Shown here in pieces: positions 14,459 through 45,766 of a stretch of 64,000 nt of DNA. The stretch covers positions 474,433 through 538,432 of the forward strand of contig CAAGEP010000003.1 of the NCBI GenBank assembly GCA_900768875.1, read 5' to 3'. Below the pieces are notes generated by a model, which worked only from the letters and a program-made list of their open reading frames with translations, was not told where the DNA came from and ran no database searches. The translations under genes and the position numbers were made by a program. Each line of letters begins with the position of its first letter. The first letter of the stretch is position 1. This DNA is from Alphaproteobacteria bacterium (lineage in GTDB: Bacteria > Pseudomonadota > Alphaproteobacteria > CAAGCB01 > CAG-977).

Positions 14459-15409
14459 ATGAACATGGAAAAATATCAACAAAAAACAATCAAGCACGAA
14501 ATTTCTTGCGTCGGTGTCGGTTTGCACACGGGCAATAAAATTTCAATGGTCTTGAAACCTGCCGACATCAATACGGGCATCGTTTTCCACCGCACGGACG
14601 TCGCCGGTCAAAACGCCTATATTCCCGCGCGTCACGAAAACGTCGTCGACACCAGAATGTGTACCTGCATCGGCAACAAAGACGGCGTCAGAATCGCAAC
14701 AATCGAACATTTGATGGCCGCCATTCACGCCTTGGGCATCACCAATATGGAAATCGACATCAATGGCCCCGAAACCCCTGTCATGGACGGCAGCGCGGCT
14801 CCGTTCGTCTTTTTGTTGGAATGTGCCGGAATCAAAGTGCAGAAAGCCTCTTTGAAAGCCGTCAAAGTCCTGAAGCCCGTTTCGTACAAGGACGGTGACA
14901 AGGAAGTCACCCTTTCCCCCGCAGACGAAGGACTGACCATGCACTTTGCCATCGATTTCCCCGCCGCGATTATCGGGCATCAGGAAACGGATTTGAACTT
15001 GACCGCCGCGAACTTTAAAAATATGTTCTGCCGCGCCCGCACGTTCGGCTTTTTGAAAGACATCGAAATGTTGCGCTCCATCGGTTTGGCGCGCGGCGGT
15101 TCGCTGGACAACGCCATTCTGGTCAACGACAACACGATTATGAACAAAGAAGGGTTGCGGTACAAAGACGAATTCGTCCGCCATAAAATGTTGGATGCCG
15201 TCGGTGATTTGTATATGACGGGCATGCCGCTGATTGCAAGCTTTACGGGGTGTCGTTCGGGACACACGGACACGAACGCTTTACTGACCGCTTTGTTGGC
15301 AGACGAAAGCAACTATGAAATCGTCGACTTGCCGTCCTATATGGCGGAATTAGAGGAAAAACAAGCCGCCGTTCAATCCGACGAAGATGCCGCTTTTATG
15401 TGCGCTTGA
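14459..15409 (+). CDS. lpxC: UDP-3-O-acyl-N-acetylglucosamine deacetylase LpxC.
   Basis: 316 aa with an LpxC-like N-terminus (IKHEISCVGVGLHTGNKISMVLKPA). The GGAC motif is preceded by GGGG. Position after ftsZ. Confidence 0.85.
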   Translation: MNMEKYQQKTIKHEISCVGVGLHTGNKISMVLKPADINTGIVFHRTDVAGQNAYIPARHENVVDTRMCTCIGNKDGVRIATIEHLMAAIHALGITNMEIDINGPETPVMDGSAAPFVFLLECAGIKVQKASLKAVKVLKPVSYKDGDKEVTLSPADEGLTMHFAIDFPAAIIGHQETDLNLTAANFKNMFCRARTFGFLKDIEMLRSIGLARGGSLDNAILVNDNTIMNKEGLRYKDEFVRHKMLDAVGDLYMTGMPLIASFTGCRSGHTDTNALLTALLADESNYEIVDLPSYMAELEEKQAAVQSDEDAAFMCA

Positions 15410-15426
15410 CATTTTGATTTGCCCGA

Positions 15427-15462
15427 AAAAAAAACACCTCTGGTTTAAGAGGTGTTTTTTTT
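15427..15462. terminator. Rho-independent terminator (bidirectional) between the convergent lpxC and recA.
   Basis: An A9 run, then hairpin cacctct-ggtttaa-gaggtg, then a T8 run. Confidence 0.75.
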
Positions 15463-15712
15463 AACGGTATCACCGTCAAAGCCGAAGACCGCTTCATCCG
15501 GAATCGCAAGAAGTATTTAACCGGAATACAGGGAAAATTATAATACCGCGCTGATAACCGGTACTAAAACCGGTCTGAAAAAATAGAAAGCGACTCGATT
15601 TCGGACTGCGACAGCGATAAAAAATGCGGCAGCTAAAAATGCCAATCCGTTTGCGCCGGCAACTCCGATTCAAGCACGCAAATCATCATATCGACTGTTC
15701 AATACGGACGCG

Positions 15713-15740
15713 CGGCGGGCAAAACATTCTGCCCGCCGCT
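15713..15740 (-). terminator. GC-rich palindrome immediately downstream of the recA stop. It may act as a terminator or RNA-stability hairpin.
   Basis: gcggcgggca-aaacattc-tgcccgccgc, a perfect 10-bp stem. There is no clear U-tract on the minus strand. Confidence 0.35.
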
Positions 15741-15748
15741 TAATCTTG

Positions 15749-16822
15749 TTATTCTTCCGTTTCTTCGGCCTGTTCTTCGCCCGTAATCATTTTCTGCGAC
15801 AACAACCCCGCGCTGGAACGGATTTGCTGTTCGATTTCGTCGGCGATTTTCGGGTTTTCTTTCAAGAAAGTGCGCGTATTTTCACGCCCTTGCCCCAAAC
15901 GCTGACCTTTGTACGAAAACCACGCGCCCGATTTTTCAATCAGGTTCGCTTTGACGCCCAAATCAATCAGTTCGCCCGTTTTGGAAATGCCTTCACCGTA
16001 AATGATGTCGAATTCGACCGTGCGGAACGGAGGAGCGACTTTGTTTTTCACGATTTTAACCGTCGTGTTGTTGCCGATGGTTTGATCCTTGTCCTTAATT
16101 TGCGCGCCGCGGCGGATTTCGATACGCACCGACGCATAGAATTTCAGTGCGTTGCCGCCCGTCGTCGTTTCGGGGTTGCCGAACATCACGCCGATTTTCA
16201 TACGCAACTGGTTGATAAAGATGACCAGCGTGTTCGACCGTGCGACGGATGCCGTCAGTTTACGCAAAGCCTGCGACATCAATCGCGCCTGCAAACCGAC
16301 ATGGGAATCGCCCATTTCACCTTCCAATTCCGCCTTGGGGACCAGCGCCGCGACCGAATCGACGACCAGCACGTCAATCGCGCCCGAACGCACCAGCGTA
16401 TCGGCGATTTCCAACGCCTGTTCGCCCGTATCGGGCTGAGAAATCCACAAATTGTCCAAATCGACGCCCAGCTTTGCGGCATATCCGGGATCAAGCGCGT
16501 GTTCCGCGTCGATATAAGCGCATTGTCCGCCCATTTTTTGCGCCTGTGCGACGACATGCTGAGCCAGCGTCGTTTTACCCGAACTTTCGGGACCGTACAC
16601 TTCGATAATGCGCCCGCGGGGCAATCCGCCGATTCCCAGCGCGATGTCCAATCCCAAAGACCCTGTCGAAATCGCGGGGATTTCAACGGCGTTTTCGCGC
16701 TGACCCAAGCGCATGATGGAACCCTTGCCGAACGCGCGTTCGATTTGGCTCAGGGCGGCGGTCAAAGCTTTTTCTTTATCCATAGTATCCTTATCCACTA
16801 AATGTAAGACGGTTTGATCCAT
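15749..16822 (-). CDS. recA: Recombinase RecA.
   Basis: 357 aa. The N-terminal extension ([33 protein letters not shown]) resembles rhizobial RecA. Walker A is GPESSGKTT. An AGAGG Shine-Dalgarno sits before the ATG at 16822. Confidence 0.9.
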
Positions 16823-16939
16823 AATCAGCCTCTTTTATCCCACAAAAGCTTGTCGAGAGCAACAAACTTAATGTACCACTTTTGTTCCTATTTTCAAGAC
16901 AAAAAGAACAAAAGCAAAACATTTTTTTCGGATAAAAGA

Positions 16940-17890
16940 TTATCGGGACAGTTTTTTACGGGCGACCGCCGCCTGCAAAGCCGCGCTGTTTGCCGATTTT
17001 TCGGCTGTTTTCGGCGCCGTTCCGTACACATACAAATCGTTGTACGACGTGTCGACTTTCAGCTTCTTGTCCGCGCGGAATTCGTTGACGCTTTTGGCGA
17101 AATCCATCGTGTTTTGATTGATTTGCAAACGCGCGGGTTCGTTCAGCACATCGGGCTTGTCCGCCCAATAGCATTTTCCCGCCGTGTCTTTGCAGAACAT
17201 ATTGACCATTTCCGCCGACGACATTTCACGTTTGAAAAAATCGGCGGGCTTGGCTTCGCGATGCTCTTGCAACGAATTGCTCAAAGCGTCGTTAAAAACA
17301 ACATTTTTTTCGTAAATATCCATCATCGGCTTGTTTTGATACCAGCCGTCAAACGCGCCGCGCATCATTGCGGGCGTGGCGATTCTTTCGTCACCTTTCG
17401 CGGCGGATTCCATGCCTTTGGTGATTTTGGGGCATTTTTCTTCCAATGCTTTCCACGGACCGTCGTTGCCGCTGTTTTTGCGGATTTCCCAAGCCGTCGC
17501 CGCACCGACGGCTTCCGCGTCGGCTTCAATCGCGCGGTTCATTTTCAACGTGTCGCGAATGACCAGTTCGCGGTGGTTGTCGGGAACACCGCGCATGACT
17601 TGCTGAACATGGCGACATTCGTGCGCCAATGTTTCCATCAGCACGTTGTCGTCGTAGCAAGTGCTTAAAAAAATCGTTTTCATTTCTTCGCAAATAAAGC
17701 CCTGCGTTCCCGACATCGCTTGCATCCTCAGCTGATAGCCCGCTTTGGCGGCGTCTTCCAACACGGCGCGCCCCGTGGGAGAATTGTCGGCAATCGTGTT
17801 AATCAAGTGTGCAAAACGATTTTTGCCGTTTTCGGTATACGCCTGAAAAGGCAAATCGATTTTCGGTTCTTGCGCGATATAGTCGGTCAT
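16940..17890 (-). CDS. HExxH-motif (putative gluzincin-type metallopeptidase) family protein, paralog 1. Function unknown.
   Basis: 316 aa. The motif LAHECRHVQQ is followed ~27 aa later by NRAIEADAE. There is no signal peptide. The C-terminal tail is basic and ends ...ARKKLSR. It is a paralog of the three genes at 28.0-32.3 kb. Confidence 0.6.
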   Translation of the reverse strand: MTDYIAQEPKIDLPFQAYTENGKNRFAHLINTIADNSPTGRAVLEDAAKAGYQLRMQAMSGTQGFICEEMKTIFLSTCYDDNVLMETLAHECRHVQQVMRGVPDNHRELVIRDTLKMNRAIEADAEAVGAATAWEIRKNSGNDGPWKALEEKCPKITKGMESAAKGDERIATPAMMRGAFDGWYQNKPMMDIYEKNVVFNDALSNSLQEHREAKPADFFKREMSSAEMVNMFCKDTAGKCYWADKPDVLNEPARLQINQNTMDFAKSVNEFRADKKLKVDTSYNDLYVYGTAPKTAEKSANSAALQAAVARKKLSR

Positions 17891-17943
17891 GACAGCTCCT
17901 TGGTGCTTAATTTATCCAAGTATGCCACGCCGCGCCGCATCCG

Positions 17944-18732
17944 TCAAGCGGATTTTGTCCACCCCTTTTGTCCAAAAGAAATGATTGTCGGATTTTTCAA
18001 TCCTTCTTTGCGATACGTCAAAACCCGCCCTGTTTCGGCGTCGAACACTTCGCCGCCCGACGCGCGCAAAACAGCGTGCGCCGCCGCCGTGTCCCATTCT
18101 TTTGTTTTGTGGGAACAAGGATAGACATCGGCTTTTCCTTCGGCAATCAAGCAGAATTTCAGCGAACTGCCGCACGGTTTTTTGTCCGCGATTTTCAGCC
18201 CCGCCAGCATTTTTTCGACAACGGCTTCGTCGCAATGCGTGCGGCTGTTCAAAACCGCGTAACCGCTTTCGGGGACGGCGCGGGTTTTCAAAACCGTTGT
18301 TTGTCCGTTTTGTTCCTTGACCGCTTCATTCGGCGAAAGCGTGTAATACAAAGCCCGCAGCACGGGCGCGTACACCGCCCCGAACACGGGCGCATCGTCC
18401 TTGATTAAAGCGATGTTGACGGTGAATTCACCGTTCTTTTTCACAAAATCCGCCGTGCCGTCAATCGGATCGACCAGCCAGAACAGGCTTTGCGACAAAT
18501 CGGGCAAGCCGCCCGCGGCAAGGTGTTCCTCGCCAATCAAAGGGATGTCGGGGGTCAAAGCGCGCAATCCTTCAAAAATTATGCCTTCGGCTTTCAAGTC
18601 GGCGTCGGTCACGGGTGATTTGTCTGCTTTTTCGTACACGGCAAAATCGCTGCCGTAAATTTCCATAACGGCGTCGCCCGCCTTGACCGCCAGCGCGGCG
18701 ATTTGTTTCACGTCAAAAGGATACGCGTTCAT
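17944..18732 (-). CDS. cysQ: 3'(2'),5'-bisphosphate nucleotidase CysQ / inositol monophosphatase family.
   Basis: The ATG at 18732 is preceded by a GGAGGG Shine-Dalgarno. The N-terminus reads MNAYPFDVKQIAALAVKAGDAVMEIY. IMPase motifs are present (WLVDPIDGT, LIGEE). The longer ORF-track call is an upstream extension. Confidence 0.7.
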   Translation of the reverse strand: MNAYPFDVKQIAALAVKAGDAVMEIYGSDFAVYEKADKSPVTDADLKAEGIIFEGLRALTPDIPLIGEEHLAAGGLPDLSQSLFWLVDPIDGTADFVKKNGEFTVNIALIKDDAPVFGAVYAPVLRALYYTLSPNEAVKEQNGQTTVLKTRAVPESGYAVLNSRTHCDEAVVEKMLAGLKIADKKPCGSSLKFCLIAEGKADVYPCSHKTKEWDTAAAHAVLRASGGEVFDAETGRVLTYRKEGLKNPTIISFGQKGWTKSA

Positions 18733-21161
18733 TTTCCCTCCACAATGTGTTTTACTTTTTCGCTTAAATCCCGCAGGCTGAACGGCTTTGCCATAAAATG
18801 AAAATCGGGCATTTCGCCGATATCGCCGCGGGCGGCTTCCTCGGAAAAACCGGAAATCAGCAGAATTTTGGAATACACGCCGTCTTGGCGCAGTTTGTTC
18901 GCCAACGCCACGCCGTCCATCCCCGGCATGACCATATCCGTAATCAGCAAATCGAATGTCTGCCCTTCGCCCACTTTTTCCAAAGCTTCCTCGGCGCAAG
19001 TGCAGTCAACCACCGTATAGCCTTTGGCGGTCAAAGCGCGTTTGGTTACCGCGCGCACGCCGTCTTCGTCTTCGACCAACAGGATAACGCCCGACCCCGT
19101 CAAATCGGGCGCGGGCAAAGGCGGCGGCAAAGCCGGCTTGTCCGAAGCGAATGAAAACGTCAGCTGATCGCCCGCTTTGGGCGCATCGGGTTTGACCCGC
19201 ACGAATTCCGCCACCGCTTTGGCTTTCTGCAAACGCTGCGCCTGTTCCGCGGTTTGGTCGGATTCTTCGGTCAGGCGGCGGACTTCTTCGGACGAATGGC
19301 GCGGCAGGTAAATACTGAACGTCGTTCCCGCACCGACGGTGCTTTTCACGTTGATATAGCCTCCCGACTGGCGAATGTTGCCGTACACCATCGCCAACCC
19401 CAGTCCCGTTCCCGAATCGACGCCGCCCGATTTTGTTGAAAAGAACGGTTCGAAAATCCTTTGCAGGTTTTCTTCGCTGATGCCGCACCCCGTATCGGAA
19501 ATGTCGATAACGACGTATTCGCCGGGCATGACTTCCTCGGAACCGATGTACTGTCCCGCGGGAATCCGCTGAAACCGCGTGCGAATGGCAAAGGTTCCGC
19601 CGTCGGGCATCGCGTCGCGCGCATTGACCGCCAAGTTGACGAACACTTGATCGAACTGCGTTTTGTCCACGCGGATAAAGCCCAAATTCCGCCCGTGGTC
19701 GATTTGAATGACGGTCTTTGTCCCCAGCAGGCGGCGCAGCATGAATTGAAGCTCTGCAAAAATATCGGTTACATCCAAGTATTTCGGACGCAACGGCTGT
19801 TTGCGCGAATAAGACAACAACTGACCGACCAGACTTGCCGCGCGAGTCGCGCTGTATTGAATGTTTTTAAGCTCCGTAAAGTCGGGGTCGGACGCGGGGT
19901 GCGACTGCAGCAAAAGCTCAGTCGAACCGATAATCGCGGTTAAGAGGTTGTTGAAATCGTGAGCGATGCCGCCCGCCAACTGTCCGATTGCCTGCATTTT
20001 TTGGGCTTGAGAAAACTGAATCGACAGGTTTCGGCGTTCCGTATTGTCGATAAAGTGCGCAATAAAGCCGAACACGTCGGGCTTGCCGTCCTCATCGTCT
20101 TCGGTCATCGGAGTAATGTAAACGGCGGCATACTTTTCGGTTTCGGAGCTCAGTTTGACTTCGGCATGGGCGCGGGACAGCTGAGCCATCATAACCTTTG
20201 CCATTTTGTCCTTCAGTTCCGCCCAATCGTCGGTATCGATGCAGTCTTCCAGCTTTGTGCCGACCAGTTCTTCGCGCGTTTTGCCCGTCAGCTGGAACAA
20301 AATCGAGTTCGCTTCGGTAATCACGCCGTCCTTGTCCACGAAAGCAATACCGACGGGGGCTTCTTCAAACAATCGGGAAAAGCCGACTTCGGCGTCTTTT
20401 GCGCCCTGTTCGTGTTCTTCGCGCGAAGTCACGTCCCGCACGACGGACGCGCGCAGCATCGTTTCACCGTTTTCGTCGTAAACGGCATGGCTGACAAAAG
20501 CCGTGAACGTCCCGCCCGTTTGCGTGCGAAACGTCAGCTCGCCGTGCCAAAATCCGTCCAGTTCGGGAACATGATTTCCCGCCAGCAAATCGACCAGCTT
20601 CCTGCCTTTCAGTTCGCGGGGATTGTTGACGCCCAGCCAGTCGCAAAAGCGGCGGTTGACGAAGTTAATCACGCCGCCCGCGTCGATTTGATACAGTCCG
20701 ATGGGCAAAGCGTCCAGAAATTCCGCCATTTCCTGCGTTTCCTGCCGCATGACGGCATCCATCGCCCTTTGCGCCGTAATGTCGCGCACCCGCCACAGCG
20801 TCCCGACATCCGTTTGACGCAGGGAAACCGAGTACCATTCCCAGAAATCGGCATCGCCGCCTGTGGACTGCATCAGCAGTTCAACCGCCGTTTCGGCTTT
20901 GTTTTTCAAAGCGGCGTCCAGCTTTGCCATCGCCAAGCGGTTGCTGTCTTCGTCGGGCATCAGGCGATCGACGACGGCGGTTCTTAAATCCAGTATGCCG
21001 AAAAAGCTTTTGCCCGCGCGGTTCATGTAAATCAGATCGCCGTCCGTTCCGACCAAAGCCAAAGCGTCGGATTCGCTTTCCATCAATGCCGCCGTTCTGT
21101 CCGCGTCTTTGACATCAAAGCGCAGGGCTTTCGCAATTTTTTTCAAAAAAGACTGCGGCAT
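18729..21161 (-). CDS. Cytoplasmic hybrid sensor histidine kinase, CckA-like, with PAS-PAS-HisKA-HATPase-REC architecture.
   Basis: 810 aa. The H-box is QLAGGIAHDFNNLLTAIIG. The C-terminal receiver is LLVEDEDGVRAV...DLLITDMVMPGMDG. There is no N-terminal TM segment. It is translationally coupled to flhB, with zero gap. Confidence 0.7.
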   Translation of the reverse strand: MPQSFLKKIAKALRFDVKDADRTAALMESESDALALVGTDGDLIYMNRAGKSFFGILDLRTAVVDRLMPDEDSNRLAMAKLDAALKNKAETAVELLMQSTGGDADFWEWYSVSLRQTDVGTLWRVRDITAQRAMDAVMRQETQEMAEFLDALPIGLYQIDAGGVINFVNRRFCDWLGVNNPRELKGRKLVDLLAGNHVPELDGFWHGELTFRTQTGGTFTAFVSHAVYDENGETMLRASVVRDVTSREEHEQGAKDAEVGFSRLFEEAPVGIAFVDKDGVITEANSILFQLTGKTREELVGTKLEDCIDTDDWAELKDKMAKVMMAQLSRAHAEVKLSSETEKYAAVYITPMTEDDEDGKPDVFGFIAHFIDNTERRNLSIQFSQAQKMQAIGQLAGGIAHDFNNLLTAIIGSTELLLQSHPASDPDFTELKNIQYSATRAASLVGQLLSYSRKQPLRPKYLDVTDIFAELQFMLRRLLGTKTVIQIDHGRNLGFIRVDKTQFDQVFVNLAVNARDAMPDGGTFAIRTRFQRIPAGQYIGSEEVMPGEYVVIDISDTGCGISEENLQRIFEPFFSTKSGGVDSGTGLGLAMVYGNIRQSGGYINVKSTVGAGTTFSIYLPRHSSEEVRRLTEESDQTAEQAQRLQKAKAVAEFVRVKPDAPKAGDQLTFSFASDKPALPPPLPAPDLTGSGVILLVEDEDGVRAVTKRALTAKGYTVVDCTCAEEALEKVGEGQTFDLLITDMVMPGMDGVALANKLRQDGVYSKILLISGFSEEAARGDIGEMPDFHFMAKPFSLRDLSEKVKHIVEGK

Positions 21162-22259
21162 TTACGGCGTATCCTCCCCTTGGGGCAAAGTTTTTCCTTT
21201 CAGCCGATAGACATACTTGATGACTTCGGCCACAGCCGCATAATGCTCCGTCGGAATGGGAGAGTCAATTTCTACCGTTGCGAACAGCGCGCGCGCCAGC
21301 GGCGGATTTTCGACAATCGGCACATCGTTTTCCTTTGCGACCTCTTTGATTTTCTGCGCGATAAAGTCCTGCCCTTTGGCGACGCACACGGGCGCGTCCA
21401 TGCCTTCGTCGGGTTCATAGCGCAAAGCCACCGCAAAGTGGGTCGGGTTTGTTACAACGACGGACGCTTTCGGCACGTTCGCCATCATGCGTTTGCGGAA
21501 ACGCTCCATGCGGATAGAGCGCAAACGCATTTTGATTTGCGGATCGCCCTCGGTTTGCTTGTATTCCTCCTTGACTTCCTGTTTGGTCATGCGCTGACGC
21601 TTCAAGTAGGAAAACTTTTGATAAAAATAGTCGGCGAAAGCGATGACGAACACAATCATCACCATCGTCAGCAAAATCCACAGCAACAGCGAATACAGCA
21701 AATCGATAATCGACGCCACGTCAAACGACGGCGACGCCAGCACGTTGACAATGCGCGGTTTGACAATCAGCCATCCCGCATAGCCCACCGCCGCGATTTT
21801 CAGCAGCCCTTTTATCATATCGACGATTTTGGCTTTGGTGATGAATTCCTTGGCGTTGGCGAACAGGTTAATTCTGTCCCACTTCAGCGTCATGCGTTTG
21901 GGCGCGTACAGAAAACCGATTTGAACCAAAGCCGACGCTATCGCCAAAATCAAAAACAGCCCCAAAGGCGCGGCAACTGCAATCAGCATATCCAGCGATG
22001 TATCGCGCAGCAAATCGCGCAGTCCCAGCGGGTCCGTCGGCAGCTGTTCGGGGCGTTCGATGTACTTGACGGACAGCCGCGCCGTGTACTTCATCAAAAA
22101 CGGGCAAAGCCCCCACAGCATCATCAAAGCGGCAAACAGCATAAACCAGCTTTTGACTTCCTGAGACATGGGGACATGCCCTTCTTCGCGGGCGCGCTCC
22201 AGTTTTCGCTCGGAAGCCTCTTCTGTTTTCGAGGACTCGTCCTGATCGTCTTCAGCCAT
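21162..22259 (-). CDS. flhB: Flagellar export apparatus protein FlhB.
   Basis: 365 aa. The NPTH autocleavage motif (VVVTNPTHFAVAL) is present. The topology is FlhB-like. Confidence 0.85.
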   Translation of the reverse strand: MAEDDQDESSKTEEASERKLERAREEGHVPMSQEVKSWFMLFAALMMLWGLCPFLMKYTARLSVKYIERPEQLPTDPLGLRDLLRDTSLDMLIAVAAPLGLFLILAIASALVQIGFLYAPKRMTLKWDRINLFANAKEFITKAKIVDMIKGLLKIAAVGYAGWLIVKPRIVNVLASPSFDVASIIDLLYSLLLWILLTMVMIVFVIAFADYFYQKFSYLKRQRMTKQEVKEEYKQTEGDPQIKMRLRSIRMERFRKRMMANVPKASVVVTNPTHFAVALRYEPDEGMDAPVCVAKGQDFIAQKIKEVAKENDVPIVENPPLARALFATVEIDSPIPTEHYAAVAEVIKYVYRLKGKTLPQGEDTP

Positions 22260-22265
22260 TGCCCC

Positions 22266-23024
22266 TCACCTTAACAGCAATCCGATTTCGTCGTCAAAGA
22301 ACCGCAGGAACCACCGCATCACGGCGGGCAGAGTCACCATCATCAGCGCCAGCCCCAAATAGACTTGCAAAGGCATAATAATGAACAAAATGTTCAGTTG
22401 CGGCATCAAACGCGACATAATCCCCATGGACGAATACAGCACGACAATCATTAAAATGAACGGCGCGCCGATTCTGAATCCGTAATTGAATGCGGCGGAC
22501 AAAGTTTTCGTCAGCATTTCCGACATGTCGCCCGTCAGCAAATTCTGCCCGACGGGAAAAACGGCATAACTGTCCAGCACCGCCCCCAGCATCAAATGAT
22601 GCGCGTTCGTTACCACAATCAGCATCACCGCACACAGCGTCAGAAAGCTGGACAGCACGGTCGACTGCACCGACGTTTGCGGGTCAAGCACGGTCGCGTT
22701 TGAAAAGCTGGTCGCCATTGCGGCGTTCGTTCCCGCCAAATCCACGGCCGTCATCAAAAACGCGGGAAACAGCCCCAAAAACAGCCCGACCGTGATTTCA
22801 ATCAGCAGATATTTGAACAGCATCAAAACGCTTTCGGGCGGGGTCGGCATCACATTTGCCATAGCGGGGGTCAACGCCGCCGAAAACGCCAAAGCGAACA
22901 GCAGACGCACCCGCGCGGGAATGTAGCTTGACGAATAAAAGGGCATAAACAGCAACGCGCCGCCCAAACGGGCGAACGCGAATAAAAAGTGATACAGCTC
23001 CAGACTCAGCAGTTTTTCCCACAT
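22266..23024 (-). CDS. fliR: Flagellar export apparatus protein FliR.
   Basis: 252 aa polytopic membrane protein lying between fliQ and flhB. Confidence 0.8.
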   Translation of the reverse strand: MWEKLLSLELYHFLFAFARLGGALLFMPFYSSSYIPARVRLLFALAFSAALTPAMANVMPTPPESVLMLFKYLLIEITVGLFLGLFPAFLMTAVDLAGTNAAMATSFSNATVLDPQTSVQSTVLSSFLTLCAVMLIVVTNAHHLMLGAVLDSYAVFPVGQNLLTGDMSEMLTKTLSAAFNYGFRIGAPFILMIVVLYSSMGIMSRLMPQLNILFIIMPLQVYLGLALMMVTLPAVMRWFLRFFDDEIGLLLR

Positions 23025-23027
23025 CGC

Positions 23028-23297
23028 TTATGTTCCCAAAGCGACAATGCGGTCGAACAACCCCGCGGAAAACGTCCTTAACTGGTCAATCATAAACGGA
23101 AGCAGCAAAATCAGCGAAATGAACACCACCAGAATTTTCGGCACGAACACCAGCGTCATTTCTTGGATTTGAGTCAACGTCTGCACCAAACTGATAAGCA
23201 GACCGACAACCATCGCAATCATCAGCAACGGTCCCACGACCAGCAAAAGCGTGTAAATCGCGTCTTTACCGACCTCCAGAACCATAACGTCGTTCAT
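23028..23297 (-). CDS. fliQ: Flagellar export apparatus protein FliQ.
   Basis: 89 aa from the ATG at 23297 (MNDVMVLEVGKDAIYTLLLVVGPLL...), matching FliQ size and hydrophobicity. The ORF track's upstream extension is rejected. Confidence 0.75.
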   Translation of the reverse strand: MNDVMVLEVGKDAIYTLLLVVGPLLMIAMVVGLLISLVQTLTQIQEMTLVFVPKILVVFISLILLLPFMIDQLRTFSAGLFDRIVALGT

Positions 23298-23313
23298 TGA
23301 CCGCGCCCTTCCG

Positions 23314-23628
23314 TCAAATCGGCATTTGCAGAATATCTTGATAGGCGGAAACGACCTTGTCGCGCACGGCGACGACGGTTTGCAAAGCGACTTCGGCATT
23401 TGACACCGCCATAACGACCTCTTGAATATCCGCGGTTCCTTTGACGGCTTTCATACTCATCAATTCGGCGTATTGGTTATCCTTTTCCACCTGTTCGGCG
23501 GCAGAGCGCACCATTTCGGAAAACGTCCCCGCGGGCGAAACGGCTTTCGCTTCGTCGGCGGACGGCAAAACCGCGCGGGTCGCCGCCGTCTGATACGCCG
23601 AAAGAGCTTGGGAAATCTGATTGACCAT
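23314..23628 (-). CDS. fliE: Flagellar hook-basal body protein FliE.
   Basis: 104 aa. Follows flgC in the alphaproteobacterial flgB-flgC-fliE arrangement. Confidence 0.75.
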   Translation of the reverse strand: MVNQISQALSAYQTAATRAVLPSADEAKAVSPAGTFSEMVRSAAEQVEKDNQYAELMSMKAVKGTADIQEVVMAVSNAEVALQTVVAVRDKVVSAYQDILQMPI

Positions 23629-23646
23629 TTTCTATCCTTTCAAGCG

Positions 23647-24057
23647 TCAGCGGATTAAATCCAACGTGCGGCTCATCATATCCTTGGACACGGAAATCAC
23701 GTTCAAGTTCGCTTCGTAAGTTCTTTGCGCTTCTTTCATATCCATCGTTTCAATCAAAGGATTGACGTTCGGCAGCAACACATAGCCGTCTTTGTCGGCG
23801 GCGACGTGATTCGGGTCGTATTTGCGTTCCAGTTCGCTTCTGTCGCGGGAAACGCGTCCGACTTTGACCATTTCCGCACCCGTCGCCCTGTCCAGTTCGT
23901 TGCGGAACGTCACCGTTTTGCGGCGATAAGGCTGTCCGCCAGGCGTTTTGGCAAGCGAATCCGCGTTCGCCATATTTTCGGCGATGACGCGCAACCGTTG
24001 GGATTGGGCTTTCATGCCCGAAGCGGCGATTTTTTTGCTCAGCGTCAAATCATCCAT
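23647..24057 (-). CDS. flgC: Flagellar basal-body rod protein FlgC.
   Basis: 136 aa with conserved rod-protein termini (MDDLTLSKKIAASGMKAQSQRL...ANLNVISVSKDM). Confidence 0.85.
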   Translation of the reverse strand: MDDLTLSKKIAASGMKAQSQRLRVIAENMANADSLAKTPGGQPYRRKTVTFRNELDRATGAEMVKVGRVSRDRSELERKYDPNHVAADKDGYVLLPNVNPLIETMDMKEAQRTYEANLNVISVSKDMMSRTLDLIR

Positions 24058-24077
24058 GATATTCCTCCCTTACGGCA

Positions 24078-24521
24078 TTATTTGCCCAACGCGGTTCCCA
24101 GCAGAGCCATATTCTTTTTGAACAGAGTCGTTACCTGTTCGTGCTGACCGCGGGTTTCGTCGATTTTTGCCCATTGTTCCTCTAAAATCACACCGTTTTT
24201 ATCGATGACGGTTTCAAAGGGGCGGCGGGTTTCCTTGACTTTTGCCTTGCCGTCCGCGACGGGCGACAAGTGTTTCGGATCGGTTTTGACCATTTTCGCA
24301 TCCCCCGAAGCGGCGGTGCGGTGCATCGGATTCGTGCGCGTCAAAGGAACGTGTTTGCTTTCGCCGACGAATTCCTTGAACTTCAGCGGTTCGACATCGG
24401 ACGGCATATAGTTCGGCGTATTGGCGTTGGCGATGTTTTGGGACAAGACGGACTGTCTTTGCGCCAGCCAGCGCATTTTTTCTTCGCTCATTTGGTACAA
24501 GGACAAATTCTGCAAATCCAT
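24078..24521 (-). CDS. flgB: Flagellar basal-body rod protein FlgB.
   Basis: 147 aa. It is the first gene of the minus-strand flagellar block. Confidence 0.8.
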   Translation of the reverse strand: MDLQNLSLYQMSEEKMRWLAQRQSVLSQNIANANTPNYMPSDVEPLKFKEFVGESKHVPLTRTNPMHRTAASGDAKMVKTDPKHLSPVADGKAKVKETRRPFETVIDKNGVILEEQWAKIDETRGQHEQVTTLFKKNMALLGTALGK

Positions 24522-24558
24522 GTTCGACTCCCTTTCACATCATCTTGCGTTTTTTTAT

Positions 24559-24573
24559 TTAAGAAAAAGTGAA
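24559..24573. promoter_or_regulatory. Possible CtrA-type site (TTAA-N7-TGAA, one mismatch) 38 bp upstream of flgB.
   Basis: ttaa-gaaaaag-tgaa. The consensus is TTAA-N7-TTAA. Confidence 0.2.
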
Positions 24574-24722
24574 TCTTTTTCCCACCTTGTCAGCTTTGCA
24601 AGAACCGTGCCGATTCCAGATTGCCCGCTTTTCGCCCGAAATGCAAAGATTTTTCTTTTCCGCGCGCTTTTTAAAGCGTACAACCCGAAACACCTTTTCA
24701 TTTTAAAACGGAGTTTTGAAAA

Positions 24723-25058
24723 ATGCACGCTGTTTTACCTGTCGTTCTGTTGATTTGTTCGAACATTTTTATGACTTTTGCGTGGTACGGACACTTGAAA
24801 TTCAAATCGACTTCGCTGTGGGTGGTGATTTTGGTCAGCTGGGGAATCGCGTTTTTCGAATACTGCCTGCAAGTCCCCGCCAACCGAATCGGGCACGAGT
24901 ATTATTCCGCCGCCCAGCTCAAAGGCATGCAGGAAGTCATCACGCTGAGCGTCTTTGCCGTGTTTTCGATTTTTTATCTGGGCGAGCAAATCCGCTGGAA
25001 TCATATCGCGGGATTTATCCTTTTGGTCGTTGCGGGCGCATTGATTTTTAAACGCTGA
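24723..25058 (+). CDS. Small DMT-like membrane protein (DUF486-like).
   Basis: 111 aa with 4 predicted TM helices. Confidence 0.5.
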   Translation: MHAVLPVVLLICSNIFMTFAWYGHLKFKSTSLWVVILVSWGIAFFEYCLQVPANRIGHEYYSAAQLKGMQEVITLSVFAVFSIFYLGEQIRWNHIAGFILLVVAGALIFKR

Positions 25059-25103
25059 TACGGTATCATACGTTCAATATTGTTTTTTGAAAGGATACTG
25101 GCA

Positions 25104-26027
25104 ATGAGTGGTTTTGTCGTTTTTTTGATTGTTCTGGCAATCGTGGTCATTTCTTCGGGCGTCAAAACCGTGCCGCAAGGCATGGAATACACCGTCGAAC
25201 GGTTCGGACGCTACACGCACACTTTGAAACCGGGGCTGAGCCTGATTATCCCCTTTGTCGATTCCATCGGCGCGAAAGTCAACATGATGGAACAGGTTCT
25301 TGACGTTCCGTCGCAGGAAGTCATCACCAAAGACAACGCCATGGTTACCGTCGACGGCGTCGTGTTCTTCCAAGTGCTGGAAGCCGCCCCCGCCGTTTAC
25401 GAAGTCCGCCAGCTGCAGGTCGCGATTTTGAATTTGGTCATGACGAACATCCGTACCGTGATGGGGTCGATGGACTTGGACGAACTGCTCAGCCAGCGCG
25501 ACGTGATTAACCACCGCTTGCTGGAAGTCGTGGACAAGGCGACCGAAGCCTGGGGCGTCAAAGTCATGCGTATCGAAATCAAAGACATCACGCCGCCGCG
25601 CGATTTGGTCGATGCCATGGCGCGCCAGATGAAAGCCGAACGCGACAAACGCGCCCAAATTCTGGAAGCCGAAGGTCTGCGTCAAGCGCAAATTCTGAAA
25701 GCCGAAGGTGAAAAGCAATCCGTCGTTCTGGCGGCGGAAGGACGCAAGGAAGCCGCTTTCCGCGACGCCGAAGCCCGCGAACGCCAAGCCGAAGCGGAAG
25801 CCAAAGCGACCGCCTATGTTTCCGAAGCCATCGGCAAAGGCAACATCAACGCGATTAACTACTTCTTGGGTCAGAAATATCTGGACGCTTTGAAATCCAT
25901 CGGCACGGCGGACAATTCCAAAATGGTCATGCTGCCGCTGGAAGCGACCAACATTCTGGGGTCCATCGCGGGCATCGGCGAAATCGCCAAAGAAAGCTTG
26001 GCAAAACAGACAACCAAGCGAGGCTGA
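25104..26027 (+). CDS. SPFH/band-7 (stomatin-like) protein.
   Basis: The ATG at 25104 follows an AGGAT Shine-Dalgarno. N-terminal TM helix, then an SPFH core and an Ala/Glu-rich coiled coil. Confidence 0.8.
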
Positions 26028-43556: not shown

Positions 43557-43572
43557 TTAATTGTTTATTAAC
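43557..43572. promoter_or_regulatory. Perfect CtrA-type box TTAA-N7-TTAAC, 56 bp upstream of the Cys-rich protein gene.
   Basis: ttaa-ttgttta-ttaac. It is also part of the inverted repeat TTAAT...ATTAA. Confidence 0.35.
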
Positions 43573-43627
43573 ACCCGAAGTTATGCCATACTGTAGAATC
43601 ATAGTAAATATTTTTCGGAGGCATCTC

Positions 43628-45766
43628 ATGCGAAAATTTATTCTTTGCCTTATCGTTTTGTGTTGGTCGGCGGGGACTTCCGCCGCCGTGCTGAATGATG
43701 CGGACGCGTTTGTCATCGCGCGCAGTGCAAAGCTGGGCGAAATGGAGGACAGCTTTTCCTCCGGCAAACAGGTCACCAAAAAAATCGGCTGCGCTCCGGG
43801 GGAAGCCGATTGCGTCGGTCCGACCTTGTGCAAAACGGATTCCCAGTGCAAAGATGACGAATACTGCTCCGTCATCAAACAATGCACGAAGCTGTGTTCG
43901 GGCGGTGTCAATTCGGATGGGGAAAAATGTTCGGATTACCCGCGCATGCCCGAATGTACGCCCACAAAAAACGGGCATAAATCCTACTGCGCCTGCACGG
44001 ACACGTCTTGCGGCACAGGGTGGAAATGTGCTGAACAAAACGGCATAAAGCAGTGCGTTATCTGTTCCGCGGGCGAAGCATGCGGATGTCCCGATGGCAA
44101 AATGTCCAACGGCAAAGGCGGTTGCGGCGGCTGCAACACGAATGAAGATTGCGCGGGCAACGAAACCTGCGCGGATGCGGGAACGACCGAAGCCGAATGT
44201 AAAACGATAACATGCCCCGACGGAACTTTCCCCAAGGATCACGACTGCGTCAAATGCAGCGCGCTGGATGCGAACTGTCTGGAATGTTCGGAAACGCAAT
44301 GCGTCACGTGTCTGCCCGCCTATGATTTGGTTGACGGGAAATGCGTGCTGAAAACGTGTCCCGACGGCCAGTATCTGGACGAACTTACCGGCACATGCAA
44401 TCCGTGCGGCGCGGGATGCAAAAAATGCACATCGGCCGACGTCTGTACGGAATGTGAAAGCGCTTATGATTTGGAAAACGGCGCATGCAAAACCAAAAAC
44501 TGCGGCGACGGCATGTATTTGAATATGGAAACGGGCGAATGTCTGTCCTGTTCCGCGGAATGTGCGACATGCACGAACGTTGCGAACGACGGTGAAACGT
44601 CGCAGTGCATCACCTGCGCCGACGGTTATCACATGGCGGACGGCGTTTGCGTTGCGAACGGATGCGCGGATATGAAGCTGGCGACCGAATGTGGCGCCAA
44701 TCAAATCAAAACCGACGCGGGTGTGGCAACCAACGGGGAACAGTGCTGGTCCTGCGCAGACCCCGAACCCGAATGTCGCAAGGATACGGATTGCGACAGC
44801 ACGCAGAAATGTTCGCCGGACGGTGAATGTGTGCTGAAAACATGCGCGGAAATGGGGTATGAAAAGACCTGCTCCGCGGGCTATTTGAAAAACGAAGCCG
44901 CGGTCGGTTCGGACGGCATGTGCTACACCTGCCAGAACCCTGCAAAAGACTGCCCCGCGGACAAACCCGCGTGGGACGGCAAAAAATGCGTTCAATGCAC
45001 CGCAAACAGCCATTGCGAAAGCTTTGAATACTGCAAAGATAATCAGTGCGTCCTGCAGGCGGGTAAATGCTATACCAGCAATGATTGCCAGTATAACGAT
45101 TATTGCAAAGACCATTCCTGTGTTCCTGCCTGTGACCCGAATCCGTGTTCCGGTAAAACTCCCAGATGCGCAGTTTACAGCAGCCACACAGCAAAATGCA
45201 CCTGCACTCCAAGCCCCGATTCTTGCGGCGCAGGATACAACTGCGTTAATAGCGGCGGATATAACTGCAAACCGACAACGTGTTCATCTGACGACGATTG
45301 CGATCACGACAAAGCTTGCAAGAACGGGAAATGCGTGGATCCTTGCGATCCGAACCCGTGTTCCGGTAAAACTCCCAGATGCGCAGTTTACAGTAACCAC
45401 ACAGCAAAATGCACCTGCACTCCAAGCCCCGATTCTTGCGGCGCAGGATACAACTGCGTTAATAGCGGCGGATTCAACTGCAAACCGACAACGTGTTCAT
45501 CTGACGACGATTGCGATCAATCCAAAGCTTGCAAGAACGGGAAATGCGTGGATCCTTGCGATCCGAACCCGTGTTCCGGCGAACAGCCACGCTGCGGCAG
45601 CGGCAGTCACCGTGCTAAATGTTATTGCACATCAACCAGTTGTCCGGCCGGATACGTTTGCGACGGTGCGAGCTGCAAAATGAAAACAACGGAAAAATGC
45701 ACGACGGACGACGATTGTTCGGCGGACAAAAAATGCTCCGACGGTTATTGCGTCTACCGCGAATAA
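43628..45766 (+). CDS. Secreted, extremely cysteine-rich repeat protein (furin-like/VSP-like CxxC modules plus EGF/EB-like modules). Eukaryote-like.
   Basis: The ATG at 43628 follows a GGAGG Shine-Dalgarno. Signal peptide MRKFILCLIVLCWSAGTSAA. The 712-aa protein is about 15% Cys. Recurring motifs: C-x2-C...TC-x-xG-YL and DPNPCSGKTPRC. Confidence 0.7.
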   Translation: MRKFILCLIVLCWSAGTSAAVLNDADAFVIARSAKLGEMEDSFSSGKQVTKKIGCAPGEADCVGPTLCKTDSQCKDDEYCSVIKQCTKLCSGGVNSDGEKCSDYPRMPECTPTKNGHKSYCACTDTSCGTGWKCAEQNGIKQCVICSAGEACGCPDGKMSNGKGGCGGCNTNEDCAGNETCADAGTTEAECKTITCPDGTFPKDHDCVKCSALDANCLECSETQCVTCLPAYDLVDGKCVLKTCPDGQYLDELTGTCNPCGAGCKKCTSADVCTECESAYDLENGACKTKNCGDGMYLNMETGECLSCSAECATCTNVANDGETSQCITCADGYHMADGVCVANGCADMKLATECGANQIKTDAGVATNGEQCWSCADPEPECRKDTDCDSTQKCSPDGECVLKTCAEMGYEKTCSAGYLKNEAAVGSDGMCYTCQNPAKDCPADKPAWDGKKCVQCTANSHCESFEYCKDNQCVLQAGKCYTSNDCQYNDYCKDHSCVPACDPNPCSGKTPRCAVYSSHTAKCTCTPSPDSCGAGYNCVNSGGYNCKPTTCSSDDDCDHDKACKNGKCVDPCDPNPCSGKTPRCAVYSNHTAKCTCTPSPDSCGAGYNCVNSGGFNCKPTTCSSDDDCDQSKACKNGKCVDPCDPNPCSGEQPRCGSGSHRAKCYCTSTSCPAGYVCDGASCKMKTTEKCTTDDDCSADKKCSDGYCVYRE
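45134..45580 (+). repeat. 213-bp (71-aa) tandem repeat inside the Cys-rich gene: two near-identical copies plus the start of a third.
   Basis: Copies begin at 45134, 45347 and 45560. Copies 1 and 2 differ at only a handful of nucleotides. Confidence 0.8.

What the first reader, a model, noticed from the sequence alone, without database searches (positions are those of the whole stretch)
16940..24521. Flagellar export operon continues without a gap into a soluble CckA-like hybrid kinase, cysQ and an HExxH-family gene
On the minus strand, flgB-flgC-fliE-fliQ-fliR-flhB is followed by an 810-aa PAS-HisKA-HATPase-REC kinase that starts zero nt after flhB. The cysQ start overlaps the kinase stop by 4 nt (ATGA). 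HExxH paralog 1 follows 53 nt later, then recA. The kinase resembles the cell-cycle kinase CckA in its H-box and receiver but has no transmembrane segment. Translational coupling of a CckA-like kinase to the flagellar type III export gate genes is not the arrangement described in model alphaproteobacteria. One HExxH copy has been placed in this transcriptional context.
Basis: partly seen in the sequence, partly recalled or inferred. Interest (0 to 1): 0.5.

Follow-up and report, generated by a model that had tools for sequence, protein, structure and literature searches.

The report
Anchorless CckA kinase behind flagellar genes
A gut alphaproteobacterium keeps its motility and cell-cycle kinase CckA in the ancestral position right after the flagellar export genes, which is ordinary, but this whole lineage has lost the kinase's membrane anchor and gained a tightly coupled cysQ gene, which is a modest novelty.

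Summary
On the minus strand, flgB-flgC-fliE-fliQ-fliR-flhB runs with a 0-nt gap into an 810-aa 3xPAS-HisKA-HATPase-REC kinase. Its stop overlaps the cysQ start (ATGA). A DUF6782 HExxH gene follows after 53 nt, then recA.

The kinase is the CckA ortholog. CckA models are by far its best NCBIfam hits. Its H-box matches Caulobacter CckA at 26 of 27 residues. The catalytic and c-di-GMP-site residues are kept. It sits in the cckA position between flhB and recA.

The claim that this arrangement is unusual fails. All 7 distant, mostly membrane-anchored CckA loci I sampled have the same flgBC-fliE-fliQR-flhB-cckA order, and in four of them flhB and cckA overlap. The linkage is also visible in Phenylobacterium and is reported for Rhodospirillum rubrum.

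Three things are specific to this gut/rumen clade:
- Both N-terminal transmembrane helices are lost in all 44 close homologs, leaving a short amphipathic helix.
- cysQ is inserted and coupled in every locus examined.
- A conserved sigma-54-type promoter lies upstream of flgB.

The HExxH gene is a variable insertion, present in 8 of 17 genomes, with its own promoter-like site. Co-transcription is inferred, not shown. This is an ancestral synteny carrying a new CckA variant, of modest interest.

The parts
24598..24611 (-). sigma-54-type -24/-12 promoter element, GGCACGgttcTTGC, about 77-90 nt upstream of the flgB ATG
   Evidence: It is the only match in the 64-kb window, where 0.35 are expected by chance. 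YGGCAYG-N4-TTGCA is conserved at the same place in all 18 clade loci that include the flgB upstream region, while the flanking sequence diverges. Micavibrio L024 also has one.
24542..24575 (-). conserved leader motif (GATTCAC-T-run-TTAAA...AAACGCA) between the promoter element and the flgB Shine-Dalgarno; function unknown
   Evidence: It is conserved across clade loci in the upstream alignments. There is no Rfam match.
24078..24521 (-). flgB (proximal rod)
   Evidence: Matches Pfam Flg_bb_rod. Syntenic in all related loci.
23647..24057 (-). flgC (proximal rod)
   Evidence: Matches Pfam Flg_bbr_C and Flg_bb_rod.
23314..23628 (-). fliE
   Evidence: Matches Pfam FliE.
23028..23297 (-). fliQ (export gate)
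   Evidence: Matches Pfam Bac_export_3. The homolog alignments start at this ATG.
22266..23024 (-). fliR (export gate)
   Evidence: Matches Pfam Bac_export_1.
21162..22259 (-). flhB (export switch); its last codons carry the GGAGGA Shine-Dalgarno for cckA
   Evidence: Scores 375.8 bits against TIGR00328, above the cutoff. NPTH is at residue 271. The Shine-Dalgarno and stop/start abutment are conserved in the clade.
18729..21161 (-). cckA ortholog without transmembrane helices (810 aa): N-terminal amphipathic helix, three PAS domains, DHp, CA, linker, REC
   Evidence: The best NCBIfam hits are the CckA models, at 601 and 391 bits. PDB 5idj (Caulobacter CckA) aligns at 200 bits. No TM segment is detected. 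The AlphaFold2 domain layout has mean pLDDT 81. The gene is in the orthologous position.
21126..21158 (-). codons 2-12: short amphipathic helix (PQSFLKKIAKA) that stands where two TM helices sit in other CckAs
   Evidence: The hydrophobic moment is 0.82, against a background 95th percentile of 0.71, and the N-terminal alignment places it at this position. It is predicted as a helix, with low pLDDT of about 55-60.
20046..21074 (-). three PAS domains (residues about 30-127, 152-242 and 268-372)
   Evidence: Pfam reports three PAS_4 stretches. The AlphaFold2 secondary structure agrees.
19959..19961 (-). codon of the phospho-acceptor His401 (equivalent to Caulobacter H322)
   Evidence: Placed by alignment to 5idj. 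Invariant in 40 of 40 homologs.
19356..19385 (-). c-di-GMP primary-site residues Y593, G594, R597 and Y602 (equivalent to Caulobacter Y514, G515, K518 and W523)
   Evidence: Placed by alignment to 5idj and 5idm. The residue roles come from PMC5026420.
18936..18938 (-). codon of the receiver Asp742 (equivalent to Caulobacter D623)
   Evidence: Invariant in 40 of 40 homologs.
17944..18732 (-). cysQ (3'(2'),5'-bisphosphate nucleotidase, 262 aa); its start overlaps the cckA stop (ATGA)
   Evidence: Scores 255.4 bits against TIGR01331, cutoff 228.8. The junction is read. It is present after cckA in all 19 clade loci and absent from the 6 distant loci whose contig extends past cckA.
17919..17947 (-). 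sigma-70-like promoter match (TTGACG-17-CATACT, with TG) in the cysQ-DUF6782 spacer
   Evidence: A consensus scan only, so this is weak evidence.
16940..17890 (-). DUF6782 putative HExxH metallopeptidase; a variable insertion
   Evidence: Matches Pfam DUF6782 at 171 bits. HECRH is at residue 90. It is present between cysQ and recA in only 8 of 17 related genomes.
15749..16822 (-). recA; the conserved downstream neighbour of cckA
   Evidence: Matches Pfam RecA at 474 bits. A promoter-like site lies at 16870-16897. It is syntenic in the clade and in 6 of 7 distant loci.
15712..15739 (.). first strong GC-rich hairpin downstream of the whole gene row (10 pairs, 9 of them G-C), just after the recA stop
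   Evidence: Found by the terminator scan. No comparable hairpin lies between flgB and recA.

Best explanation
This is the ancestral alphaproteobacterial block flgB-flgC-fliE-fliQ-fliR-flhB-cckA...recA, carried by an uncultured gut/rumen alphaproteobacterium (98% identical to MAG UBA2903).

The 810-aa protein is the CckA ortholog. CckA is the bifunctional hybrid histidine kinase/phosphatase at the head of the CckA-ChpT-CtrA phosphorelay, which controls flagellar genes across the class.

In this clade the two N-terminal transmembrane helices were deleted. What remains is a 12-residue amphipathic helix in front of an otherwise complete three-PAS, DHp, CA and REC protein, with intact phospho-acceptor His, receiver Asp, ATP-binding boxes and c-di-GMP site. 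The kinase is therefore cytoplasmic, or at most peripherally attached to the membrane.

I infer that its inputs come through the PAS domains and c-di-GMP. Membrane-constrained clustering is unlikely.

The genes from flgB through cysQ are packed with gaps of -4 to 20 nt and no terminator. They sit behind a conserved sigma-54-type promoter, and cckA has its own Shine-Dalgarno inside the end of flhB. They are most likely made as one early-flagellar transcript, with flhB-cckA-cysQ translationally coupled.

cysQ is a clade-specific insertion. The DUF6782 gene is a later, variable insertion with its own promoter-like site. recA is independently expressed.

What is shown: gene identities, junctions, TM loss, residue conservation, synteny and promoter-motif conservation. 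What is inferred: co-transcription, sigma-54 dependence, cytoplasmic location and signalling to ChpT/CtrA.
For: Family and residues:
- The CckA models are the top NCBIfam hits. NF046020 scores 601 bits over model positions 86-867 of 868, so only the TM part of the model is missing. NF046026 scores 391 bits. The next non-CckA model scores 326 bits.
- Caulobacter CckA DHp-CA (5idj) aligns at 200 bits, with 26 of 27 H-box residues identical.
- H401, D742, G397, R453, G594 and the N, G1 and G2 boxes are invariant in 40 homologs. Y593 is kept in 34 of 40. The roles of these residues come from PMC5026420.
- More distant homologs are named CckA by JGI.

Position:
- The gene order is the same in 17 genomes at 66-98% identity, in two deeper clade loci and in all 7 distant loci.
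- The literature shows the same linkage in P. zucineum and Rh. rubrum.

TM loss:
- None of P0001-P0044 has a hydrophobic segment, whereas nearly all hits at 45% identity or less have one or two.
- PAS1 aligns directly to the region after TM2 of the anchored proteins.
- The clade is monophyletic and surrounded by TM-bearing sequences in a neighbour-joining tree.
- The AlphaFold2 model shows helix 2-12, then three PAS domains, DHp, CA and REC.

Operon:
- The junction sequences and the Shine-Dalgarno are conserved.
- The terminator scan finds nothing above chance between flgB and recA.
- The sigma-54-type element is unique in the window and conserved in 18 of 18 clade loci.
Against: - There are no transcript data. 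A promoter-like match lies inside the 3' end of flhB (21240-21268), so cckA-cysQ could also have their own transcript.
- The score is below the 1000-bit equivalog cutoffs of both CckA NCBIfam models.
- ChpT, CtrA, DivL and RpoN were not found in the 64-kb window, and I could not search the rest of the genome. Pathway membership and sigma-54 dependence are therefore unverified.
- A second, membrane-bound CckA elsewhere in the genome cannot be excluded.
- In Caulobacter, membrane tethering and polar clustering are considered important for kinase activity (summarised in PMC8116508). How an anchorless form is switched on is unknown.
Confidence: 0.75

Rival explanations
1. cckA and cysQ are transcribed mainly from their own promoter embedded in the 3' end of flhB. 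The adjacency to the flagellar genes would then be inherited synteny without co-regulation.
For: A sigma-70-like match, TTGACT-17-CATTAT, lies at 21240-21268, 80-110 nt upstream of the cckA ATG. In Caulobacter the literature speaks of a fliQ-fliR-flhB operon and does not include cckA in it (PMC12421884).
Against: The match is only 9 of 12 and lies in coding sequence. The scan found 9 promoter-like sites in the region against 5.8 expected by chance. The stop/start abutment or overlap and the embedded Shine-Dalgarno are conserved across the clade and in distant lineages. That pattern is typical of co-transcribed, coupled genes. The two modes are not mutually exclusive.
Confidence: 0.3
2. The kinase is not the functional CckA. 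It would be a soluble paralogous hybrid kinase that feeds into or competes with the pathway, as CcsA does in Sphingomonas, while a canonical membrane CckA is encoded elsewhere in the genome.
For: It scores below the equivalog cutoffs of both CckA models. It lacks the TM helices that are typical of CckA. A branched CcsA/CckA pathway exists in Sphingomonas melonis, as cited in PMC8116508.
Against: It occupies the exact cckA position between flhB and recA that TM-bearing CckAs occupy in all 7 distant loci. No second CckA-like hit appears in any of the fetched loci. The nearest TM-bearing relative, P0045, is itself the flhB-linked gene of another lineage. The H-box and c-di-GMP residues are of the CckA type.
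Confidence: 0.07
3. Stop-codon readthrough at the flhB TAA produces a FlhB-CckA fusion, so that FlhB supplies the missing membrane anchor.
For: The flhB stop is immediately followed, in frame, by the cckA ATG in the window and in 13 of 17 related genomes.
Against: With a 0-nt gap the shared frame is automatic. In L012 and L013 the gap is 1 nt, so the genes are out of frame. In L029 and L030 they overlap by 4 and 11 nt, again out of frame. A conserved Shine-Dalgarno precedes the ATG. The stop is usually TAA, an efficient terminator.
Confidence: 0.02
4. The missing TM region is an artefact: a wrong start codon, a frameshift or an assembly error.
For: None specific. It is a generic risk with metagenome-assembled genomes.
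Against: The in-frame codon just upstream of the ATG is the flhB stop, and flhB is full length, matching its profile end to end. The same N-terminus is seen in 44 protein clusters from many independent assemblies. The N-terminal peptide is conserved at the protein level.
Confidence: 0.02

Closest known systems
Caulobacter crescentus CckA (CC1078; PDB 5idj and 5idm)
   Same: It is a hybrid kinase with PAS domains, DHp, CA and a C-terminal REC. The H-box is nearly identical (26 of 27). His, Asp, the G318 and R374 equivalents and the Y514 and G515 equivalents are kept. The gene neighbours fliQ-fliR-flhB in the family Caulobacteraceae.
   Different: The Caulobacter protein has two N-terminal TM helices and two PAS domains (PMC5026420). 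This one has no TM helix and three PAS domains. K518 is replaced by R and W523 by Y. Sequence similarity is high only in DHp-CA. The score of 391 bits is far below the 1000-bit equivalog cutoff.
Brucella-type CckA (NCBIfam NF046020)
   Same: It is the best-scoring family, at 601 bits, and aligns in one stretch from PAS1 to the end of REC (query 21-807 to model 86-867).
   Different: The first 85 model positions, the membrane part, have no counterpart in the query. The score is below the 1000-bit cutoff.
flgBC-fliE-fliQR-flhB-cckA-recA block of Rhodospirillales-type bacteria and Micavibrio (loci L022-L028)
   Same: The gene order and orientation are identical, flhB and cckA abut or overlap, and recA lies downstream.
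   Different: Five of the seven CckAs carry TM helices. None of the six loci whose contig extends past cckA has cysQ after it. Upstream of flgB some carry TTAA-type CtrA-box-like motifs, with a perfect TTAA-N7-TTAA in L027, and no sigma-54-type element. Micavibrio does share the sigma-54-type element.
Other naturally anchorless CckAs (P0050 and P0048 here; Wolbachia wNo in the literature)
   Same: P0050 and P0048 have no predicted TM helix and sit in the same position after flhB. For wNo the literature reports only that no TM helices are predicted (PMC4426382).
   Different: They are isolated cases nested among TM-bearing sisters, which implies independent losses. Here the loss is fixed in a whole clade of at least 44 protein clusters and comes together with the cysQ insertion.
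Engineered CckA-deltaTM (S72-A691) used for Caulobacter biochemistry
   Same: It is a soluble PAS-DHp-CA-REC protein that still binds nucleotides and c-di-GMP and is used in phosphorylation assays in vitro (PMC5026420).
   Different: It is a laboratory truncation. The protein here is the natural form, with an added N-terminal amphipathic helix and a third PAS domain.

Membership tests
CckA (cell-cycle hybrid histidine kinase) | PAS sensor domains followed by HisKA (DHp), HATPase_c (CA) and a C-terminal receiver in one polypeptide | tested here: met
   All these domains pass their Pfam cutoffs. The AlphaFold2 model shows three PAS domains, DHp, CA and REC.
CckA (cell-cycle hybrid histidine kinase) | Two N-terminal transmembrane helices with no periplasmic domain | tested here: not met
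   The maximum hydropathy is 1.2 and no segment reaches 1.6, whereas TM-bearing homologs reach 2.0-3.2. The NCBIfam alignment starts at model position 86. The TM helices are a typical feature of the family. They play no catalytic role.
CckA (cell-cycle hybrid histidine kinase) | CckA-type H-box with the phospho-acceptor His, and the receiver Asp | tested here: met
   The H-box [27 protein letters not shown] matches Caulobacter at 26 of 27 residues. H401 and D742 are invariant in 40 of 40 homologs.
CckA (cell-cycle hybrid histidine kinase) | c-di-GMP binding positions (Caulobacter Y514, G515, K518 and W523 on CA; G318 and R374 on DHp) | tested here: met
   The query has Y593, G594, R597 and Y602, plus G397 and R453. 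Four positions are identical and two are conservative replacements. The roles of these residues come from PMC5026420. Binding itself was not tested.
CckA (cell-cycle hybrid histidine kinase) | Score above the curated equivalog cutoff of a CckA model | tested here: not met
   NF046020 scores 601 bits and NF046026 scores 391 bits, both against 1000-bit cutoffs. Both models are lineage-specific (Brucella and Caulobacter). They are still the two best of 138 families.
CckA (cell-cycle hybrid histidine kinase) | Orthologous genomic position (downstream of flhB, upstream of recA) | tested here: met
   Seen in 19 clade loci and in all 7 distant loci.
CckA (cell-cycle hybrid histidine kinase) | Phosphotransfer to ChpT and on to CtrA; chpT and ctrA present in the genome | not testable with these tools
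   No such gene was found among the window's long ORFs scanned against Pfam.
CysQ (3'(2'),5'-bisphosphate nucleotidase) | Score above the TIGR01331 equivalog cutoff | tested here: met
   255.4 bits against a cutoff of 228.8.
FlhB (flagellar export switch) | Score above the TIGR00328 cutoff, and the NPTH autocleavage motif | tested here: met
   375.8 bits against a cutoff of 349.25. NPTH is at residue 271.
sigma-54-dependent promoter | GG at -24 and GC at -12, spaced as in TGGCACG-N4-TTGCW, in front of the operon | tested here: met
   GGCACGgttcTTGCA at 24597-24611 is the only such site in the window. It is conserved in 18 of 18 clade loci.
sigma-54-dependent promoter | rpoN and an enhancer-binding activator in the genome; a transcription start about 12 nt downstream of the GC | not tested
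   Neither gene is in the window. No transcript data are available.

The most novel reading that the evidence does not exclude
In this gut clade CckA works as a natively non-membrane kinase. It would be produced from a sigma-54-driven early-flagellar transcript and translated in tandem with FlhB. It would be brought to its site of action by co-translational assembly at the nascent flagellar export gate, or by its N-terminal amphipathic helix. That would replace the transmembrane anchoring and polar clustering that Caulobacter needs. Coupled CysQ would trim pAp, a known inhibitor of the nanoRNases that clear pGpG. This could tie local c-di-GMP turnover to the kinase/phosphatase switch.
Probability: 0.1. 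Interest if true: 0.6.

Novelty: new variant of a known kind. Interest (0 to 1): 0.3.

Why it matters
The headline of the finding, a cell-cycle kinase wired to the flagellar export genes, is an old and widespread arrangement. It fits the view that the CtrA pathway began as a motility regulator, so it needs no special explanation.

What may be useful is the natural experiment. A whole lineage of gut and rumen alphaproteobacteria runs CckA without its membrane anchor, yet keeps every catalytic and c-di-GMP-binding residue. Work in Caulobacter ties CckA kinase activity to membrane tethering and polar crowding. An anchorless but otherwise complete CckA offers a way to ask which of those requirements are general.

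The conserved sigma-54-type promoter also hints that control of the early flagellar genes, and of cckA with them, was rewired in this lineage.

Tried and rejected
- I looked for CtrA boxes (TTAA-N7-TTAA). There is only one in the window, at 43557-43571, where 0.75 are expected by chance, and none upstream of flgB. A CtrA-driven feedback loop on this operon therefore has no support here.
- I looked for intrinsic terminators inside the gene row. The matches are weak stems inside genes, at the frequency seen in shuffled sequence (24 found against 18.2 expected).
- An Rfam scan of 15400-25200 at E<=1 gave only two sub-threshold chance hits, mir-153 and Phe_leader.
- The readthrough fusion of FlhB and CckA is rejected, because the two frames differ in L012, L013, L029 and L030.
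- A mis-called start codon is rejected.
- Literature searches by Caulobacter locus tags (CC1077, CC1078) returned unrelated papers. Searches for 'soluble CckA' or 'lacks transmembrane' found nothing relevant. The orientation of cckA relative to flhB in Caulobacter itself was therefore not verified from text.
- I could not search the rest of this genome for chpT, ctrA, divL, rpoN or a second cckA.


Full report
**Observation**

The ORF map and the Pfam and NCBIfam scans confirm the following genes on the minus strand:
- flgB 24078-24521
- flgC 23647-24057
- fliE 23314-23628
- fliQ 23028-23297
- fliR 22266-23024
- flhB 21162-22259 (TIGR00328 above cutoff; NPTH present)
- an 810-aa kinase at 18729-21161 (three PAS stretches, HisKA, HATPase_c, Response_reg)
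- cysQ 17944-18732 (TIGR01331 above cutoff)
- a DUF6782 HExxH protein at 16940-17890
- recA 15749-16822

The intergenic distances from flgB onward are 20, 18, 16, 3, 6, 0, -4, 53 and 117 nt. The flhB TAA is followed at once by the kinase ATG. The kinase TGA overlaps the cysQ ATG as ATGA.

**Source organism**

The kinase is 96-98% identical to proteins of uncultured human-gut Alphaproteobacteria MAGs (UBA2903, HGM16787, UBA6411). It is 66-77% identical to those of rumen and gut MAGs labelled Alphaproteobacteria or Rhodospirillales.

**What the kinase is**

- Of 138 NCBIfam families hit, the two CckA models come first. The Brucella-type NF046020 scores 601 bits and the Caulobacter-type NF046026 scores 391 bits. 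The next family scores 326 bits. Both CckA scores are below the 1000-bit lineage-specific cutoffs.
- The alignment to NF046020 runs in one piece from model position 86 to 867 of 868. Only the N-terminal membrane part of the model is missing.
- Against solved structures, the best match is the Caulobacter CckA DHp-CA fragment 5idj at 200 bits. The H-box [27 protein letters not shown] is identical at 26 of 27 positions.
- I mapped the residues that Dubey et al. showed to bind c-di-GMP (PMC5026420). Y514, G515, K518 and W523 become Y593, G594, R597 and Y602. G318 and R374 become G397 and R453.
- In a 40-sequence alignment, H401, D742, G397, R453, G594 and the ATP-binding boxes are invariant.
- More distant homologs at 36-43% identity are named CckA by JGI.

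**No membrane anchor**

- A Kyte-Doolittle scan finds no hydrophobic segment in the query or in any of the 44 closest protein clusters (56-98% identity). Nearly all hits at 45% identity or less carry one or two N-terminal segments scoring 2.0-3.2.
- An N-terminal alignment shows that PAS1 of the query lines up with the sequence just after TM2 of the anchored proteins. About 60-75 residues of TM hairpin are replaced by a stub of some 20 residues.
- In the query, residues 4-14 (SFLKKIAKALR) have a helical hydrophobic moment of 0.82, above the 95th percentile (0.71) of windows elsewhere in the protein.
- AlphaFold2 (mean pLDDT 81) predicts a low-confidence helix at 2-12. It then predicts PAS domains at about 30-127, 152-242 and 268-372, DHp at 374-452, CA at 460-620, a disordered linker, and REC at 692-808.
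- A wrong start codon is excluded. The codon just upstream is the flhB stop, and the N-terminal peptide is conserved across the clade.
- In a neighbour-joining tree the anchorless clade is monophyletic and surrounded by TM-bearing sequences. Two other anchorless proteins (P0048, P0050) sit next to TM-bearing sisters elsewhere in the tree, so the anchor was lost more than once.
- The literature also notes a Wolbachia strain (wNo) without predicted CckA TM helices (PMC4426382).

**Is the linkage to the flagellar export genes unusual? No.**

- Within the clade, 17 species-level genomes have the same order and orientation from flgB to recA. So do two deeper members at 56-59% identity.
- I looked up seven distant CckA homologs at 38-46% identity, five of them with TM helices. 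They come from Telmatospirillum, Micavibrio and other Rhodospirillales-type contigs. All seven lie directly after flgB-flgC-fliE-fliQ-fliR-flhB, and recA lies downstream in six.
- In four of these loci the called flhB and cckA genes overlap by 29-35 nt, so tight coupling is ancestral too.
- In Phenylobacterium zucineum (Caulobacteraceae), flhB is PHZ_c0932 and the CC1078 (CckA) ortholog is PHZ_c0933 (PMC2529317).
- A 2025 survey notes that ctrA, cckA and chpT are associated with flagellar genes in Rhodospirillum rubrum (PMC12363192).
- This fits the published idea that motility control was the original job of the CtrA pathway (summarised in PMC8116508).

**What is specific to this clade**

1. 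The TM loss described above.
2. The cysQ insertion. A cysQ gene follows cckA, with a start that overlaps or abuts the cckA stop, in all 19 clade loci. It is absent from that position in the six distant loci whose contig extends past cckA.
3. The promoter.
   - The motif GGCACG-N4-TTGC occurs once in the 64-kb window, where 0.35 are expected by chance. It lies on the flgB strand, 77-90 nt before the flgB ATG.
   - The YGGCAYG-N4-TTGCA version is present at the same place in all 18 clade loci that include that region, although the surrounding sequence has diverged. This is the sigma-54 -24/-12 signature.
   - Micavibrio has one too. The Rhodospirillales-type loci show TTAA-type motifs at this position, including a perfect TTAA-N7-TTAA in L027. 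This suggests a change of regulator.
   - A further conserved motif lies in the leader (24542-24575) and has no Rfam match.
4. The DUF6782 gene is not part of the conserved unit. It is present between cysQ and recA in only 8 of 17 genomes. It is preceded by a 53-nt spacer that contains a sigma-70-like match with an extended -10.

**Operon structure**

- No terminator-like hairpin above chance lies between flgB and recA. The first strong one (10 pairs, 9 G-C) follows recA.
- cckA has a conserved GGAGGA/GAGGAA Shine-Dalgarno inside the last codons of flhB.
- The stop/start abutment is exact in the window and in 13 of 17 genomes. The exceptions have gaps of 1, 3 or 15 nt, or overlaps of 4 and 11 nt.
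- These frame differences rule out a conserved FlhB-CckA readthrough fusion.
- A weak promoter-like match inside flhB (21240-21268) means separate transcription of cckA-cysQ cannot be excluded.
- Co-transcription and sigma-54 dependence are inferences from sequence. No expression data were available.

**Window context**

The gene row is flanked on one side by a dcw cell-division cluster running from ftsI to ftsZ and lpxC, which converges on recA. On the other side lie a divergent DMT_6 gene, SPFH/NfeD genes and three more DUF6782 paralogs. Among the window's long ORFs scanned against Pfam there is no other histidine kinase, and no ctrA, chpT, divL or rpoN. Whether the genome has a second CckA or the downstream partners could not be tested.

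**Verdict**

The kinase is the CckA ortholog in its ancestral position, so the proposed oddity of the arrangement is not real. The actual novelty is a clade-wide anchorless CckA, with a coupled cysQ and a sigma-54-type promoter in front of the operon. This is a new variant of a known system, of modest interest. Its mechanism rests on inference until transcript, genome-wide and biochemical data are obtained.

Noticed in passing
window 24542-24575 (-): A leader motif (GATTCAC, a T-run, TTAAA...AAACGCA) lies between the sigma-54-type element and the flgB ribosome-binding site. It is conserved in all clade loci while neighbouring bases vary. There is no Rfam match and its function is unknown.
   Followed up: partly
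L027 about 100 nt upstream of flgB; also L026, L025, L022, L023: Rhodospirillales-type relatives carry TTAA-type motifs upstream of flgB, with a perfect TTAA-N7-TTAA CtrA-box consensus in L027. The gut clade and Micavibrio have a sigma-54-type element at that position. This hints that control of the early flagellar operon was rewired.
   Followed up: partly
window 1040-3877 (+): A 945-aa ORF carries two full sets of Mur ligase domains, an apparent MurE-MurF fusion. It lies inside a dcw cluster (ftsI, mraY, ftsW, murG, murC, murB, ddl, ftsQ, ftsA, ftsZ, lpxC) that converges on recA.
   Followed up: no
window 28035-30116, 30129-31157, 31303-32340 (-): Three more DUF6782 (HExxH) paralogs lie in a row. 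The first is 693 aa and has two DUF6782 stretches. Similar paralog rows occur upstream of flgB in L004. None has an obvious signal peptide in the copy I read (16940-17890).
   Followed up: no
window 24723-25058 (+); L024 7722-8093; L029 4115-4468; L030 302-637: A small DMT_6 (DUF486) membrane protein gene is divergent from flgB throughout the clade. In Micavibrio it sits between fliQ and fliR. This is a recurrent and unexplained association with this flagellar operon.
   Followed up: no
window 43557-43571 (+): The only perfect TTAA-N7-TTAA in the window lies 12 nt upstream of a 727-aa ORF (43583-45766) that has no Pfam match. One such site is expected by chance.
   Followed up: no
L026 (P0050) and L027 (P0048): Two other CckA proteins without predicted TM helices sit in the same position after flhB. 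Each is sister to a TM-bearing protein in the tree, which suggests repeated independent loss of the anchor.
   Followed up: partly
window 16840-16935 (-), upstream of recA: An inverted repeat, TGTTC...GAACA, lies in the recA upstream region next to a sigma-70-like match (16870-16897). It may be an SOS (LexA) operator. I did not compare it with any consensus.
   Followed up: no
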